From NCBI RefSeq assembly GCF_003334815.1, contig NZ_QOWO01000040.1: a DNA stretch of 33,548 nt; one strand, given 5' to 3'. This stretch comes from Escherichia coli (GTDB lineage Bacteria > Pseudomonadota > Gammaproteobacteria > Enterobacterales > Enterobacteriaceae). Shown here one piece after another: positions 25,398 through 30,408 of this stretch; position 1 is the stretch's first letter; the number at the start of each line of letters is the position of its first letter. The notes beneath the pieces were generated by a model. That model was not told the DNA's origin. It was given only the letters and a program-made list of their open reading frames with translations, and did no database searches. Made by a program: the position numbers and the translations under genes.

Positions 25398-25820
25398 ATG
25401 ATGAAGAAGTTAGTGTTTTTATTGATTTCTATCCTTGCTGGTTGTTCATCACCGCCAGAGCCAACACCCGCGCAGTTTGAAAAGGCGAATGAAGTGATCA
25501 ATCCCTCATTGCCGTATGTCCCCGATTTTCACGGCGTCATAAAGTCAGAAGTTAGCGGTAAAGGATGGGTTTATGAGATCACTTCTTTATCCGGTGTACA
25601 GGCCAGAACGCCGACGTTTTATTACGCTCTGGCTCATGCGGACAGGGTGGTAGTAACAACACATGATGCTGGGCTGTGGTTTCAAATCAGAGATCTGTTG
25701 AAGATGGAAGGGGCAACAGCAGTCGTGGAATGGCGAAACGAGAAAAGTTTTTTACCTGAACAGGGAAAAATAGTTTTCATTAAAGCACAAAACGAGGTGA
25801 AAAATGACTGGAAAAAATAG
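25398..25820 (+). CDS. Lipoprotein (lipobox LAGC), function unknown; entry-exclusion candidate by position
   Basis: MMKKLVFLLISILAGCSS; aggag RBS. Confidence 0.55.
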   Translation: MMKKLVFLLISILAGCSSPPEPTPAQFEKANEVINPSLPYVPDFHGVIKSEVSGKGWVYEITSLSGVQARTPTFYYALAHADRVVVTTHDAGLWFQIRDLLKMEGATAVVEWRNEKSFLPEQGKIVFIKAQNEVKNDWKK

Positions 25821-26109
25821 AGTGGTTTTACCTGTCTTTCTGGCGTTAGGATTAATATCAACAAATGCTAATGCATCTGACCCTTGCGCTTCGGTACTTT
25901 GCTTATATGGAAAAGCAGTCGGGCAAGGTGGAGGGAGTGAGTGCAGAAGTGCTGAAAAGGATTTTTTTAATATTCTGAAAAAGAAAAAAGGAAGCATTCG
26001 CTGGAGTAAAACTTTTGATGCCCGTAAAGCATTTCTGAATCAGTGTTCAACGGCTGATCCTTCTGCGATTTCAAAAATCATGAGTAAGTTCGGCAAGGTT
26101 AAAGGGTAG
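25804..26109 (+). CDS. Small exported Cys-containing protein
   Basis: Signal peptide; RBS gaggtg. Confidence 0.5.
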   Translation: MTGKNRVVLPVFLALGLISTNANASDPCASVLCLYGKAVGQGGGSECRSAEKDFFNILKKKKGSIRWSKTFDARKAFLNQCSTADPSAISKIMSKFGKVKG

Positions 26110-26114
26110 ATGAT

Positions 26115-26327
26115 ATGGAAAAGCAAACTACTGATTTACTGAATGTAATCAAGACAGGACACTCTGGCTCAATAGCTGGTAATCCTGCTCATGCACTGGA
26201 TGATAAGACTATGAACGCCATCATTCAGAACTGCACGACAACGATTGTACTTGGTAAAACAGGTAAGGGTAAAAAAACTCTTATGAAATCCTGTTTAAGA
26301 ACGAAACTGGTAGTCTCCGACTGCTAA
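26115..26327 (+). CDS. Hypothetical protein (70 aa)
   Basis: ORF track; RBS aaaggg. Confidence 0.45.
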   Translation: MEKQTTDLLNVIKTGHSGSIAGNPAHALDDKTMNAIIQNCTTTIVLGKTGKGKKTLMKSCLRTKLVVSDC

Positions 26328-26405
26328 AACACAACCCCTTCCTGTCACAATGAAAAAGTTACGGAAAGGGTATCAGAATGAAAGGCACATTAATTAGAGG
26401 TTGTT

Positions 26406-26837
26406 ATGCACAAGCAGGCTATTAACTTATTAAAAAATCTTGACCGACATATATTGATTACAGGTGAAACTGGTACAGGTAAATCAACGCTATTAGCCGA
26501 GTTGCGAATAGATGATAATGATTCTAAGTATTATCACTTTCCTGAGATAAATTCTGGTAAGCAGAATTGGGCGCTTTGCGACGAAAATTTCGATGATTTT
26601 GATTTTCTTGTGGCTCCTGAAAAAACTCTAATTCTTGACGGTGTAGCTATAGGGGAAAACTTAGAGGGATCGAAAGTTATACGGTTTATCAAAACAGCCA
26701 GAAAGCATGGAAAACGTCTTATCGTTGTTACATTCCCGTCAGATGGTGATCGAATAAAACCGTTGTTTGGGGCGATTATTACATTGTCCGGTGGAATTAA
26801 TGGCGAAAGAACCTGTGAAGTTGAAATTCTTTCTTAA
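26406..26837 (+). CDS. Mini P-loop NTPase-like protein (Walker A GETGTGKST)
   Basis: 143 aa; Walker A near N-terminus and hydrophobic-D Walker-B-like LILDG. Confidence 0.55.
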   Translation: MHKQAINLLKNLDRHILITGETGTGKSTLLAELRIDDNDSKYYHFPEINSGKQNWALCDENFDDFDFLVAPEKTLILDGVAIGENLEGSKVIRFIKTARKHGKRLIVVTFPSDGDRIKPLFGAIITLSGGINGERTCEVEILS

Positions 26838-26893
26838 TTAAATAAATGCCCCGTGTTTTCTGCGGGGTGTATACCTTTAAAAGGCTAATGAGA

Positions 26894-28082: not shown

Positions 28083-28844
28083 ATGATGACAAAACATGAT
28101 AAAGAACGATTCAATAAAAGAATCGGTGGTGAAGTTCAGATTAGTGCTGATATCCGCATTAGTGACTTAATCACAGAAGGTGCAGCTTACGTCACTATAA
28201 CGGAATCAACTGAATCATCCCTGTATGAGCGAGTCTGCCAGTATGCCTTGCAACATGGTGAAGATTTACAGGGGATGTTTAAGGATGAAAAATATGAATA
28301 TATGTCCTGTTTTGTTCGTGATGTGGCTGCATTCAGAAGTAATTTTGAAAACGAAGAGCTTTTAAAACCTCTGTTTAACCATGATAAAGGTGATACTGTT
28401 GAGTTTGTTATCAGCGTTCCTGAAAAAAGAGTCGAGGATTACAAGGATATAGTCAGAAAAGAGTTCGTAGATATAATTCAGAAGCATGTAATAACCATTA
28501 ATAATAAGCTCTGGAAGAAATTCGTAAAACAAGCCATGACGGGGACAACTTTATATATTGGTTTTGATATTAATACAGGTGAAATGGTGGACCCTGAAGA
28601 TGAACGTGACATCATATTAAAATTATCACGTCAGGAGTTTGTCAGAACAACGACTTTCGATTCATTTCAGCCCTATTTCTATGTTGAGCATTTATATTCT
28701 GGTGCAAAAGAAATAGGCAACATCAATGGTTTTAATGTCTGGTTCAATGAGAGAGGGTTTTATTTTTACTGGAATGAAGAAACGGAATTCCTGATTGAGA
28801 GTTGGTTGACGTTCCCTGCATATCCGTATGGCTGGTTTAAATGA
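28083..28844 (+). CDS. Hypothetical protein (253 aa), aromatic-rich C-terminus
   Basis: RBS agggga; track ORF 28038..28844 is the same frame. Confidence 0.55.
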   Translation: MMTKHDKERFNKRIGGEVQISADIRISDLITEGAAYVTITESTESSLYERVCQYALQHGEDLQGMFKDEKYEYMSCFVRDVAAFRSNFENEELLKPLFNHDKGDTVEFVISVPEKRVEDYKDIVRKEFVDIIQKHVITINNKLWKKFVKQAMTGTTLYIGFDINTGEMVDPEDERDIILKLSRQEFVRTTTFDSFQPYFYVEHLYSGAKEIGNINGFNVWFNERGFYFYWNEETEFLIESWLTFPAYPYGWFK

Positions 28845-28862
28845 ATCTGGAGACCAGAAAAG

Positions 28863-29192
28863 ATGATAACGATAATAATCGGTGTATCGAGAGTTATTGA
28901 TTATAAAATGGGGAAAATGTCTGTTGATATTCCCCCATTCCCTGAATGGAACAGTGGTCATTATATCGAAGTTCCAGGTGAGGGTATTGTATTCACAGGT
29001 GAAAAGTATGATGACGGTAGTCGTTGTCACTCTGGCGTCATCGAATCTCATTACAGCACCGATGACTGGGCGTTTATCCTTTCTGAATACAAAAACTGGC
29101 TGAAAGATAAGGAAAGAAAGTTTTCTTACCTGTTTGTCTTACGCAATGGTGAACTGGTTCACCATGAGGTCAACAAATCAGAGCTTCTTTGA
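28863..29192 (+). CDS. Hypothetical protein (109 aa)
   Basis: ORF track. Confidence 0.5.
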   Translation: MITIIIGVSRVIDYKMGKMSVDIPPFPEWNSGHYIEVPGEGIVFTGEKYDDGSRCHSGVIESHYSTDDWAFILSEYKNWLKDKERKFSYLFVLRNGELVHHEVNKSELL

Positions 29193-29218
29193 GTACGTCA
29201 AAGATAAAGGAAATTACT

Positions 29219-29806
29219 ATGTATATACATATTGTTCCTAAACTTTATCATCTCATGGCTAATAAATGTAGCCTTAAATCTATTTCCATACCTGAGCTTG
29301 ATTTTATAATTGATAGTGAATCATTGTCTGTAGGCAGACCGTGGCCTAATAAATGTTTATGGGTTGGAATGCGAAAAGGCAGAAAGTCAGTTAATGGTCT
29401 TGTTTTGCAAACAGATAAAAAATTAAGATGGTTTACTACTATATACACCTGGGATATTGAAAATATGGGATTAATTTATCATCGGGTCAATACCTATATA
29501 GAAGATGATGATTTTGATATGGTATCACAGGAAATTCTCTTAAATGGTTCTTTTGAGAAGTGGAGTGACAGGGTTCATTCAGCTTATGAAAATAACCCTC
29601 CAGCCAGAATTCAGCCAAAAATGGAGTCCTTATTAAATAAGCCTGGTGAAAACAGTCATGATGTGTGGGAAGAGTTCGAATGGGGTGACTTCCTTCTGTC
29701 CAGAGAAGAAAGCCTTTTACTTCACACTATTCAGCCTGAACGATTAAACACTGATTTCTCTTTATTCAAGAGACAGCCATCTATTGAAAGCGCATTAGTT
29801 ATATAA
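29219..29806 (+). CDS. Hypothetical protein (195 aa)
   Basis: RBS aaagg 8 nt upstream of ATG 29219; track ORF 29189..29806 begins at TTG. Confidence 0.55.
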   Translation: MYIHIVPKLYHLMANKCSLKSISIPELDFIIDSESLSVGRPWPNKCLWVGMRKGRKSVNGLVLQTDKKLRWFTTIYTWDIENMGLIYHRVNTYIEDDDFDMVSQEILLNGSFEKWSDRVHSAYENNPPARIQPKMESLLNKPGENSHDVWEEFEWGDFLLSREESLLLHTIQPERLNTDFSLFKRQPSIESALVI

Positions 29807-29832
29807 ATCAGGCGTTCTGTGAGGGTTAGTAT

Positions 29833-30408
29833 ATGCAATATGCATTGTTTGATGGATTTGAACGAAAATTTTTGCTGGATGCTCTTGAATTTGGTGTCCT
29901 GAAGGACTGGAAAGAAAATCCGGTAAAAGAACTTCCTGATATTGATGAATCTGCTCACCCTTTCCATGTCTGTTATGGTGGGTATTTATTAAACCCTGGT
30001 GTTTCAGATTCTGATATTAGCAGAAAAATAAAAGACCAGACAGGATTCTGGCTGGCAGCTATTGATGATACCCGTATGGATTGTCATTCAATAGCTTATT
30101 ATGATATTCACACCCTCCCTTTAATTTCGTGTGGTCATCAGAAGATAGTTCCTTTTGCCGCATTAATAAAAGCTGATGAATGCATCATTTCAAAAATTGC
30201 TTCATATTCTGGTTTTGCTGTAACAGCCTTTTTGAGAATTAAAGACCAGGATATTGCAACTAATATACTTAACCGTGAGGGAATTTTTGCCTTTAATGGC
30301 TGTGAGTGCAGATTCAGACAACCTGTAAGTGAAGATAACTGGCAACAGGCAGTATCAGAAGAACGCGCTATTCGTTGTGCAAACAGATTAATTCAATGTA
30401 AAGGATAA
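29833..30408 (+). CDS. Hypothetical Cys-rich protein (191 aa)
   Basis: RBS gaggg. Confidence 0.55.
   Translation: MQYALFDGFERKFLLDALEFGVLKDWKENPVKELPDIDESAHPFHVCYGGYLLNPGVSDSDISRKIKDQTGFWLAAIDDTRMDCHSIAYYDIHTLPLISCGHQKIVPFAALIKADECIISKIASYSGFAVTAFLRIKDQDIATNILNREGIFAFNGCECRFRQPVSEDNWQQAVSEERAIRCANRLIQCKG

What the first reader, a model, noticed from the sequence alone, without database searches (positions are those of the whole stretch)
25398..30408. Eleven-gene co-directional accessory block between the coupling protein and topB, mostly without recognisable families
Eleven tightly packed genes with good ribosome-binding sites fill the 5 kb between taxB and topB. Two are recognisable only by motif: a 143-aa mini P-loop protein and an exported staphylococcal-nuclease-fold protein. 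The other nine (two lipoprotein or exported proteins, two membrane proteins, five soluble proteins) match nothing I can name. The four soluble proteins at 28083-30408 are the most opaque and are my best candidate for an undescribed system (anti-defence, exclusion or establishment); that is a hypothesis, not a call.
Basis: partly seen in the sequence, partly recalled or inferred. Interest (0 to 1): 0.7.

Follow-up and report, generated by a model that had tools for sequence, protein, structure and literature searches.

The report
Mosaic accessory region of IncX4 plasmid
The stretch between the coupling-protein gene and topB of this IncX4 conjugative plasmid is a patchwork of independently exchanged accessory genes, not one undescribed system; most are dispensable for transfer, and a few are real, conserved, still unnamed plasmid protein families.

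Summary
The ORF block is real: eleven co-directional, tightly spaced ORFs at 25398-30408 between taxB and topB of an IncX4-type plasmid. It is less anonymous than reported. g2 is TrbM/KikA family, g5 a secreted staphylococcal-type nuclease, g10 DUF6012, and g1 carries the RefSeq name Cag12-family lipoprotein. One ORF (g7) is doubtful.

The block is not a unit. taxB-g1-g2 and g11-topB-hha-hns are conserved anchors. The eight genes between them (g3-g10) are absent from the mcr-1 IncX4 plasmid examined, which is typed conjugative. The four "opaque" soluble proteins have unrelated distributions in 72,556 plasmids:
- g8: 316 records
- g9: 73 full-length records
- g10 (DUF6012): 2179 records, including IncHI2, Pseudomonas and Comamonas
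- g11: 1201 records, almost always abutting topB, also in IncI2

g8 and g11 give confident AlphaFold models with no informative fold match. g9-g11 are under purifying selection. None matches defence, anti-defence or phage families.

Distant g11 relatives lie in arrays of small plasmid genes beside ArdC, ParB-like, methylase, primase and relaxase genes. That gives only contextual support for individual establishment-type roles.

Verdict: an ordinary, known IncX variable region with several orphan families. Moderate-low interest.

The parts
23527..25389 (+). taxB (VirD4-type coupling protein): left conserved anchor
   Evidence: 620-aa ORF. 99% identical to RefSeq 'relaxosome-coupling protein TaxB' of IncX4 plasmids.
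25398..25820 (+). g1: lipoprotein (lipobox LAGC), RefSeq name Cag12 family; T4SS-associated envelope protein conserved next to taxB
   Evidence: A 99%-identical protein is named Cag12 family. My own Pfam Cag12 hit reaches only E 0.062. Present after the coupling-protein gene in IncX1, X3, X4 and IncU-typed IncX-like plasmids. dN/dS 0.12-0.15.
25804..26109 (+). g2: exported TrbM/KikA/MpfK-family protein
   Evidence: Pfam TrbM PF07424 at 2e-7. NCBIfam TrbM at 2.9e-5, far below the equivalog cut-off. dN/dS 0.02-0.21. Also present at 84% identity in a plasmid with a different T4SS.
26115..26327 (+). g3: 70-aa orphan; 3' end replaced relative to the 85-aa form in other IncX plasmids
   Evidence: Alignment: similarity to IncX4/IncX1 ends near 26279, the Walker-like GKTGKGKKT is not conserved, and the hairpin that follows g3 in relatives is absent here.
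26406..26837 (+). g4: minimal P-loop NTPase (Walker A GETGTGKST; LILD as probable Walker B); an allele not seen in PLSDB or in RefSeq complete E. coli genomes
   Evidence: Only generic P-loop matches. Nearest relatives are 55-60% identical: a 172-178-aa protein directly after VirD4 in IncI2 plasmids. No DNA match above 67% identity for 26250-27050.
26990..27478 (+). g5: secreted staphylococcal-nuclease-fold thermonuclease (ORF open from 26846; likely start 26990)
   Evidence: Pfam SNase 2.1e-24. NCBIfam NucI/EcnA about 3e-10 to 4e-10. PHROG endonuclease 3e-17. Leader MLMPAMLLVTLAIFSCSLYA, then the DGDT...IDAPE...R motifs, read directly. dN/dS 0.15-0.31.
27489..27815 (+). g6: small protein with one N-terminal membrane segment
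   Evidence: ORF and hydrophobic N-terminus. 97-99% identical copies are annotated in IncX4/IncX1 plasmids. dN/dS 0.2-0.5 at low divergence.
27817..28065 (+). g7: hydrophobic 82-aa ORF, doubtful gene
   Evidence: dN/dS 0.73-1.32. Left unannotated in the corresponding gap of three RefSeq relatives. No family hit.
28083..28844 (+). g8: 253-aa acidic two-domain orphan restricted to IncX-like plasmids of Enterobacterales
28863..29192 (+). g9: 109-aa orphan, narrow distribution
   Evidence: 25 homologues, all 53% identical or more and unnamed. Full length in 73 plasmids; a 3' remnant in about 440, mostly of IncI2 size. dN/dS 0.11-0.15.
29219..29806 (+). g10: DUF6012 family protein (ORF open from TTG 29189)
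   Evidence: Pfam PF19475 at 6.1e-33. Found in 2179 plasmids including IncHI2, IncHI1B/FIB, Pseudomonas, Xanthomonas and Comamonas. Clean presence/absence difference among IncX relatives. dN/dS 0.08-0.17.
29833..30408 (+). g11: 191-aa member of an unnamed plasmid-borne family; first gene of the g11-topB-hha(-hns) module
30413..33251 (+). topB (30413-32566), hha (32563-32769), hns-family gene (32787-33251): right conserved anchor
   Evidence: ORFs. NCBIfam Hha 1e-31 and H-NS 5e-31. RefSeq names on 99%-identical copies.

Best explanation
The interval is not one system. It is a recombination-prone accessory slot between two conserved anchors of the IncX backbone.

Left anchor: taxB plus two envelope proteins associated with the type IV secretion system. 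g1 is a Cag12-named lipoprotein and g2 is an exported TrbM/KikA-family protein.

Right anchor: g11-topB-hha-hns. This DNA-topology and silencing module also moves between plasmid groups (IncX and IncI2).

Between the anchors sit facultative genes that are gained, lost and swapped singly:
- a small orphan (g3)
- a minimal P-loop NTPase (g4)
- a Sec-exported SNase-type nuclease (g5)
- one or two small membrane proteins (g6, and possibly g7)
- three acidic cytoplasmic orphans (g8, g9 and the DUF6012 protein g10)

Inferred, not shown: the genes are read through from the transfer operon, because they are co-directional, tightly spaced and have no terminator. If so, they are expressed when transfer is derepressed and in new transconjugants. 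g5 would act in the periplasm or outside the cell. g8-g11 would act one by one in the cytoplasm as accessory host-interaction or establishment factors. g11 most likely works alongside plasmid topoisomerase III.

None of g3-g10 is needed for replication, maintenance or conjugation.
For: Identity of the plasmid: IncX4.

Mosaic structure:
- 23001-26279 is about 98% identical to IncX4 plasmids.
- 26280-27026 has no close relative.
- 27026-29193 is about 97% identical to IncX4 pYJ3-b and to an IncX1 plasmid.
- g10 is a clean presence/absence difference.
- The g11-topB module begins at 29805.

Dispensability: pWI2-mcr, the mcr-1 IncX4 plasmid examined (typed conjugative), goes taxB-Cag12-TrbM, a gap of about 300 bp, then g11-topB-hha-hns. 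In IncX3, the deleted hypothetical genes other than prfaH and hns changed transfer less than 12-fold (PMC11880322).

Independent distributions.

g11-topB linkage: 1041 intact junctions. IncI2 plasmids carry a g9 remnant plus g11, topB and hha. A plasmid whose VirD4 is only 29% identical carries g2, DUF6012 and topB side by side.

Real genes: dN/dS 0.05-0.17 for g9-g11, like topB at 0.07-0.10. The AF2 models are confident.

Family assignments.

No terminator in the block. G+C falls to 0.35-0.38 across 27.5-30 kb, against 0.40-0.46 in the flanks.
Against: No expression or phenotype data exist for this plasmid. Read-through transcription is inferred only from spacing and a simple terminator scan.

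All four soluble genes do occur together in some plasmids, for example NZ_CP122618. A cooperative function in that subset is therefore not excluded.

Lack of a transfer phenotype in E. coli K-12 matings says nothing about defence-proficient recipients.

Cytoplasmic location and individual action of g8-g11 are inferred from sequence features and distributions only.
Confidence: 0.65

Rival explanations
1. One reading: g8-g9-g10-g11 (28083-30408) form one undescribed multi-gene anti-defence, exclusion or establishment system.
For: The four genes are adjacent, co-directional, acidic and cytoplasmic, and have no known family. All four occur together in at least one other plasmid. The region is more AT-rich than its flanks.
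Against: The distributions are discordant: 316, 73 full-length, 2179 and 1201 plasmids. g10 is absent from otherwise near-identical neighbours. g11 stays with topB when g8-g10 are absent. g8 is often truncated. There are no PADLOC, PHROG or Pfam anti-defence hits. By the oriT inferred here, the block enters the recipient roughly 11-19 kb after the nick, so it is not in the leading region. g8 and g11 are unrelated at profile level.
Confidence: 0.07
2. g11 is a dedicated partner of the plasmid topoisomerase III (cofactor, regulator or targeting subunit), translated together with it. This is compatible with the best explanation.
For: The g11 stop lies 4 bp before the topB start. The junction is intact in 1041 plasmids, against about 1053 records that hold a copy at least 90% identical. 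g11 moved together with topB-hha into IncI2. Its purifying selection equals that of topB.
Against: topB occurs without g11: IncX3 has an unrelated 131-aa gene there, and another plasmid has DUF6012. None of the eleven more distant family members examined had a recorded or annotated type IA topoisomerase next to it: nine by Pfam hits on record, many of them on short contigs, and two by record annotation. The fold gives no hint of DNA or topoisomerase binding.
Confidence: 0.3
3. g10 (DUF6012) and g11 are individually acting early-establishment or anti-defence proteins of conjugative elements.
For: Distant g11 relatives sit in long arrays of small co-directional unnamed genes next to ArdC-N, ParB_N, an N6 methylase, DUF3085, a DnaG-type primase or a MobL relaxase. 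DUF6012 in IncHI2 lies among HNH, DUF957 and DUF3085 genes. In Comamonas it lies just past the relaxase gene with a topoisomerase. All genes here are read from the transferred strand as template.
Against: This is guilt by association only. The genes are not in the leading region of this plasmid. There is no similarity to any known anti-defence family or fold. There are no phage relatives. Strand orientation is uninformative because almost the whole plasmid is co-directional.
Confidence: 0.2
4. The soluble ORFs are decaying or non-functional filler.
For: g8 is frequently truncated, and g9 survives as a remnant in IncI2. g7 has dN/dS near 1. g3-g10 are dispensable.
Against: dN/dS is 0.05-0.17 for g9-g11. 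g8 keeps its length down to about 50% identity. The AF2 models are confident.
Confidence: 0.08

Closest known systems
[quoted passage not shown]
   Same: The order is the same: pilX10-pilX11-taxB, then Cag12-named lipoprotein, TrbM/KikA, (variable genes), topB, (hha), hns. 94% of window 1-25000 matches mcr-1 IncX4 plasmids at 98.5% identity. IncX1, IncX3 and IncU-typed relatives show the same slot.
   Different: This copy carries the fullest version of the slot. Its g4 allele and its g3/g5 junctions are absent from PLSDB and from RefSeq complete E. coli genomes. It carries no mcr-1 or IS26.
IncI2 plasmids (R721, mcr-1 pHNSHP45-like): the g11-topB-hha module and the small P-loop gene after VirD4
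   Same: g11 is 97% and topB 85% identical, followed by hha (69% identical). A 172-178-aa P-loop protein 55-60% identical to g4 directly follows the coupling-protein gene.
   Different: In IncI2 the two pieces lie in different places and g8-g10 are absent. Only the 3' half of g9 remains as a recombination scar.
Staphylococcal-nuclease homologues on conjugative plasmids. From memory, not tested here: ParB of RP4 and the nuc genes of IncW R388.
   Same: g5 has the SNase domain and an export leader.
   Different: Its biological role is unknown here as well. The pKM101 Nuc belongs, from memory, to a different (phospholipase D) fold. I made no direct comparison with any of these proteins.
Leading-region anti-defence islands of conjugative plasmids (Samuel and Burstein 2024, PMC11541004)
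   Same: Arrays of small co-directional genes read from the transferred strand. Distant relatives of g11 and DUF6012 neighbour ArdC, ParB-like and methylase genes.
   Different: In this plasmid the block lies about 11-19 kb from the inferred nick in entry order, on the far side of the replication region. No known anti-defence family is present.

Membership tests
IncX-type conjugative plasmid backbone | Syntenic pilX/virB genes, taxB, topB and hns, with high identity to typed IncX plasmids | tested here: met
   Best matches are typed IncX4 by MOB-suite. 94% of window 1-25000 matches at 98.5% identity.
Cag12 (PF13117) lipoprotein family: g1 | Significant match to the Cag12 profile | tested here: inconclusive
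   Pfam i-Evalue 0.062, partial. RefSeq names a 99%-identical protein as Cag12 family. The lipobox is read directly from the sequence.
TrbM/KikA/MpfK (PF07424): g2 | Match to the TrbM profile; exported protein | tested here: met
   Pfam TrbM 2e-7, covering model positions 10-83 of 156. The NCBIfam TrbM equivalog scores 23.6 bits against a cut-off of 259, so g2 is a family member but not a TrbM equivalog.
Staphylococcal nuclease (PF00565): g5 | Full-length SNase domain with Ca-binding and catalytic residues | tested here: met
   Pfam 2.1e-24 over model positions 1-107 of 107. The DGDT, IDAPE and R motifs are visible in the translation. Activity was not tested.
DUF6012 (PF19475): g10 | Match to the profile over its length | tested here: met
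   6.1e-33, model positions 1-196 of 200.
Type IA DNA topoisomerase (the GenBank name 'DNA topoisomerase III' given to g11) | Toprim and Topoisom_bac domains, or similarity to topB | tested here: not met
   No Pfam or NCBIfam hit. BLASTP against the adjacent topB gives E 0.26. The name is an annotation error.
Known anti-defence / anti-restriction families (ArdA, ArdB/KlcA, ArdC, PsiB, anti-CRISPRs held in Pfam) | Profile match of g8-g11 | tested here: not met
Known defence systems (PADLOC-DB) | Profile match beyond a bare P-loop | tested here: not met
   Only g4 (mad8, 1.2e-8, best-scoring stretch the Walker A region) and g5 (SNc domain) match. g8-g11 give nothing.
Plasmid leading region | Among the first genes to enter the recipient after the nick at oriT | tested here: not met
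   An RP4-type nick sequence TATCCTG|C with an upstream inverted repeat lies on the minus strand at about 10958-11006. The implied entry order puts hns about 11 kb and g8 about 16 kb after the nick. The nick site is inferred, not shown by experiment.
Single multi-gene system (operon inherited as a unit) | Co-occurrence of g8-g11 across relatives | tested here: not met

The most novel reading that the evidence does not exclude
g11 founds an uncatalogued, phylum-spanning plasmid protein family: at least 253 clusters at 50% identity, no Pfam entry, and a confident fold with no solved relative. On this reading it acts as a new kind of establishment or anti-defence factor, or as a partner of plasmid topoisomerase III. 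DUF6012 would be a second such factor. Both are carried on the mcr-1 IncX4, mcr-1 IncI2 and/or NDM IncX3 plasmids examined here.
Probability: 0.2. Interest if true: 0.6.

Novelty: new member of a known kind. Interest (0 to 1): 0.3.

Why it matters
IncX4 and IncI2 are the main vehicles of mcr-1, and IncX3 of blaNDM-5. Separating the indispensable backbone from swappable cargo helps interpret plasmid comparisons.

This analysis shows that the taxB-topB interval is a hot spot of gene exchange within IncX and with IncI2. It corrects a propagated misannotation: g11 is not a topoisomerase. It also singles out two widespread, selected and structurally well-predicted families (the g11 family and DUF6012) as the sensible targets for functional work, rather than the four-gene 'system' that was proposed.

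Tried and rejected
1. A single four-gene system. Rejected on distribution and synteny.
2. g11 as a topoisomerase fragment. Rejected.
3. g3 as a second P-loop protein or VirB11 fragment. The NCBIfam VirB11 hit (3.6e-4) covers only a Walker-like motif, and that motif is not conserved in homologues.
4. g4 as a member of the MADS defence system. The PADLOC mad8 hit (1.2e-8) has its best-scoring stretch on the Walker A region only. Pfam gives only a weak nSTAND3 match and generic AAA hits.
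5. g1 as the entry-exclusion protein. Not tested. The near-identical pWI2-mcr carries a separate EexN-family lipoprotein upstream of pilX1, so g1 need not fill that role.
7. A g11-topoisomerase link across phyla. The Bacillus neighbour '(pXO2-28-29-30) fusion protein' has no NCBIfam hit, topoisomerase or otherwise, and no other distant context examined shows a topoisomerase.
8. Flanking repeats or cassette-like sites around g10. None found.
9. Literature. No paper mentions DUF6012. I found no functional study of the taxB-topB genes beyond the IncX3 deletion series.
10. DNA-mimic charge. g8-g11 are only mildly acidic, pI 4.9-5.5.

Full report
**What the window is.** The window is an IncX4-type conjugative plasmid. 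Positions 1-25000 match mcr-1 IncX4 plasmids over 94% of their length at 98.5% identity. The best matches to the block are typed IncX4, MOBP and MPF_T. The gene order here is pilX10-pilX11-taxB (23527-25389), the eleven ORFs, topB (30413-32566), hha (32563-32769) and an hns-family gene (32787-33251). This copy carries no mcr-1 or IS26.

**Check of the observation.** Eleven + strand ORFs fill 25398-30408. Spacing runs from a 17-bp overlap to a 78-bp gap, and most have Shine-Dalgarno-like sequences. A simple scan finds no convincing + strand terminator inside the block. Promoter-like sites are at chance level, 25 against 21.3 +/- 4.5.

Four corrections apply:
- g5 probably starts near 26990 (162 aa, as in its homologues) rather than 26846.
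- g10 probably starts at ATG 29219.
- g7 (27817-28065) has dN/dS of 0.7-1.3 and is left unannotated in three RefSeq relatives, so its status as a gene is doubtful.
- The 3' end of g3 has been replaced relative to the 85-aa form elsewhere, and its Walker-like motif is not conserved.

**What the proteins are.**
- g1 has a lipobox. A 99%-identical copy is named Cag12-family lipoprotein by RefSeq, but my own Pfam hit is weak, at 0.062.
- g2 matches Pfam TrbM at 2e-7.
- g4 is a minimal P-loop NTPase with only generic matches. Its nearest relatives, 55-60% identical, are a small P-loop protein directly after VirD4 in IncI2 plasmids.
- g5 is an exported SNase-fold nuclease (Pfam 2.1e-24).
- g6 is a small membrane-anchored protein.
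- g10 is DUF6012 (6.1e-33).
- g8, g9 and g11 match no Pfam, NCBIfam, PHROG or PADLOC family and no solved structure.

The claim that most of the block lacks a recognisable family is therefore only partly right.

**The block is a mosaic, not a unit.** No plasmid in PLSDB covers 80% or more of the block. A local comparison divides it as follows:
- 23001-26279 is about 98% identical to IncX4 plasmids.
- 26280-27026 (end of g3, g4, the 5' extension of g5) has no close relative. Nothing exceeds 67% identity in 72,556 plasmids, and nothing matches in RefSeq complete E. coli genomes.
- 27026-29193 is about 97% identical to IncX4 pYJ3-b and to an IncX1 plasmid.
- g10 is a clean presence/absence difference.
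- The g11-topB module begins at 29805.

The mcr-1 IncX4 plasmid pWI2-mcr, typed conjugative, has taxB, Cag12, TrbM/KikA, a gap of about 300 bp, then g11, topB, hha and hns. All of g3-g10 are missing. IncX1, IncX3 and IncU-typed relatives show the same slot with different contents.

Counts in PLSDB are discordant:
- g8: 316 records, 150 of them full length; the halves also occur alone.
- g9: 516 records, only 73 full length.
- g10: 2179 records, reaching IncHI2, IncHI1B/FIB, Pseudomonas, Xanthomonas and Comamonas.
- g11: 1201 records.
- g4-like: 1325 records.

**g11 belongs with topB.** Its stop codon lies 4 bp before the topB start. The junction is intact in 1041 plasmids. IncI2 mcr-1 plasmids carry g11 (97% identical), topB and hha, preceded by the 3' half of g9. 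That remnant is a recombination scar pointing to exchange with an IncX-type donor.

topB also occurs without g11. IncX3 has an unrelated 131-aa gene in that position. A plasmid whose VirD4 is only 29% identical has g2 (84%), DUF6012 (95%) and topB (92%) side by side.

**Are they real genes?** dN/dS is 0.11-0.15 for g9, 0.08-0.17 for g10 and 0.05-0.11 for g11. topB scores 0.07-0.10. g8 keeps its length and motifs down to about 50% identity.

**Wider family of g11.** A profile search of 1.84 billion representative proteins found 253 clusters, mostly single-domain proteins of 180-200 aa. None of 54 diverse members hits Pfam. E19, R148 and W170 are invariant across that set.

The contexts of distant members are plasmid-like. 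They sit in long arrays of small co-directional unnamed genes next to ArdC-N, ParB_N, an N6 methylase, DUF3085, a DnaG-type primase, a MobL relaxase, TraY or Hok, in Vibrio, Aliivibrio, Bacillus and metagenomes. None shows a topoisomerase neighbour. DUF6012 in IncHI2 lies among HNH, DUF957 and DUF3085 genes. In Comamonas it lies just beyond a MobH relaxase gene, with a topoisomerase 3 gene nearby. This is contextual support only for an establishment-type role of the individual genes.

**Position relative to oriT.** An RP4-type nick sequence, TATCCTG|C, lies on the minus strand at about 10958-10966, preceded by an inverted repeat at 10966-11006. If that is the nick site, the minus strand is transferred. 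Entry then runs from about 10.9 kb down to 1, wraps to 33.5 kb, and continues through hns, topB and g11 to g1. The block therefore enters roughly 11-19 kb after the nick, beyond the replication region, and is not in the classical leading region. Orientation on the transferred strand is uninformative because nearly all genes of the plasmid share it.

[quoted passage not shown] In IncX3, deleting the hypothetical genes tested, other than the RfaH-like activator and hns, changed transfer less than 12-fold (PMC11880322). topB-hns co-localisation is noted in PMC11796372. No paper mentions DUF6012.

**Conclusion.** The ORFs are real, apart from the doubts over g7 and the 3' end of g3. The interval is an ordinary, already sequenced IncX variable region made of independently exchanged pieces. 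The proposed four-gene system is not supported.

What remains of interest is modest. There are three orphan families: the g11 family, DUF6012 and g8. Two of them are widespread and clearly under selection on the main mcr-1 and NDM plasmid lineages. Their function is unknown and their folds are not informative. The g4 allele is new to the collections searched.

Noticed in passing
window 207-299 (- strand): Rfam AgrB antisense RNA (55.6 bits against a gathering score of 40). The homologous mcr-1 plasmid annotates a DinQ-like type I toxin (dqlB), which suggests a type I toxin-antitoxin pair; I did not check how the two positions correspond.
   Followed up: no
window 10958-11006: Likely oriT. An inverted repeat (GACAATCCGAT / ATCAGATTGTC) is followed on the minus strand by the RP4-type nick motif TATCCTG|C, just upstream of taxA. 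It implies that the minus strand is the transferred strand.
   Followed up: partly
window 26255-26420, compared with L001:3885-4000, L009 and L002: Other IncX plasmids have a strong hairpin (CCGCAGATTCCAGATTTTAATCTGGAATCTGCGG) right after g3. In the window it and the g3 3' end are replaced by a segment carrying g4, which has no close relative in PLSDB or in RefSeq complete E. coli genomes.
   Followed up: partly
window 27817-28065: g7 has dN/dS near 1 against three relatives and is never annotated there. It may not be a gene despite a good ribosome-binding site that resembles the one before g6 (repeat D9).
   Followed up: partly
L003 (IncI2 pABC149-MCR-1) 4835-8021: IncI2 mcr-1 plasmids carry the 3' half of g9, then g11 (97% identical), topB and hha. 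This is evidence of past module exchange between IncX and IncI2, the two main mcr-1 vectors.
   Followed up: yes
L026 (CP057048) 4970-8171: A plasmid whose VirD4 is only 29% identical to taxB carries TrbM/KikA (84% to g2), DUF6012 (95% to g10) and topB (92%) directly adjacent. These pieces move between different transfer backbones.
   Followed up: partly
proteins P0099 and P0104 (Arsenophonus), alignment A2: These g8-like proteins begin with a topoisomerase-like N-terminus (MNLYIAEK...). This suggests a deletion or fusion between topB and a g8-like gene in those plasmids.
   Followed up: no
window 12871-13376 (by homology to L005 3866-4371): The near-identical mcr-1 plasmid annotates a small HTH/sigma-like protein, possibly the counterpart of the IncX3 RfaH-like activator (not tested), and an EexN-family entry-exclusion lipoprotein upstream of pilX1. 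Entry exclusion may therefore already have a candidate outside the block.
   Followed up: no
whole window: The plasmid appears to be a resistance-free IncX4 backbone. It has no mcr-1, pap2 or IS26, all of which are present in its closest relatives.
   Followed up: partly
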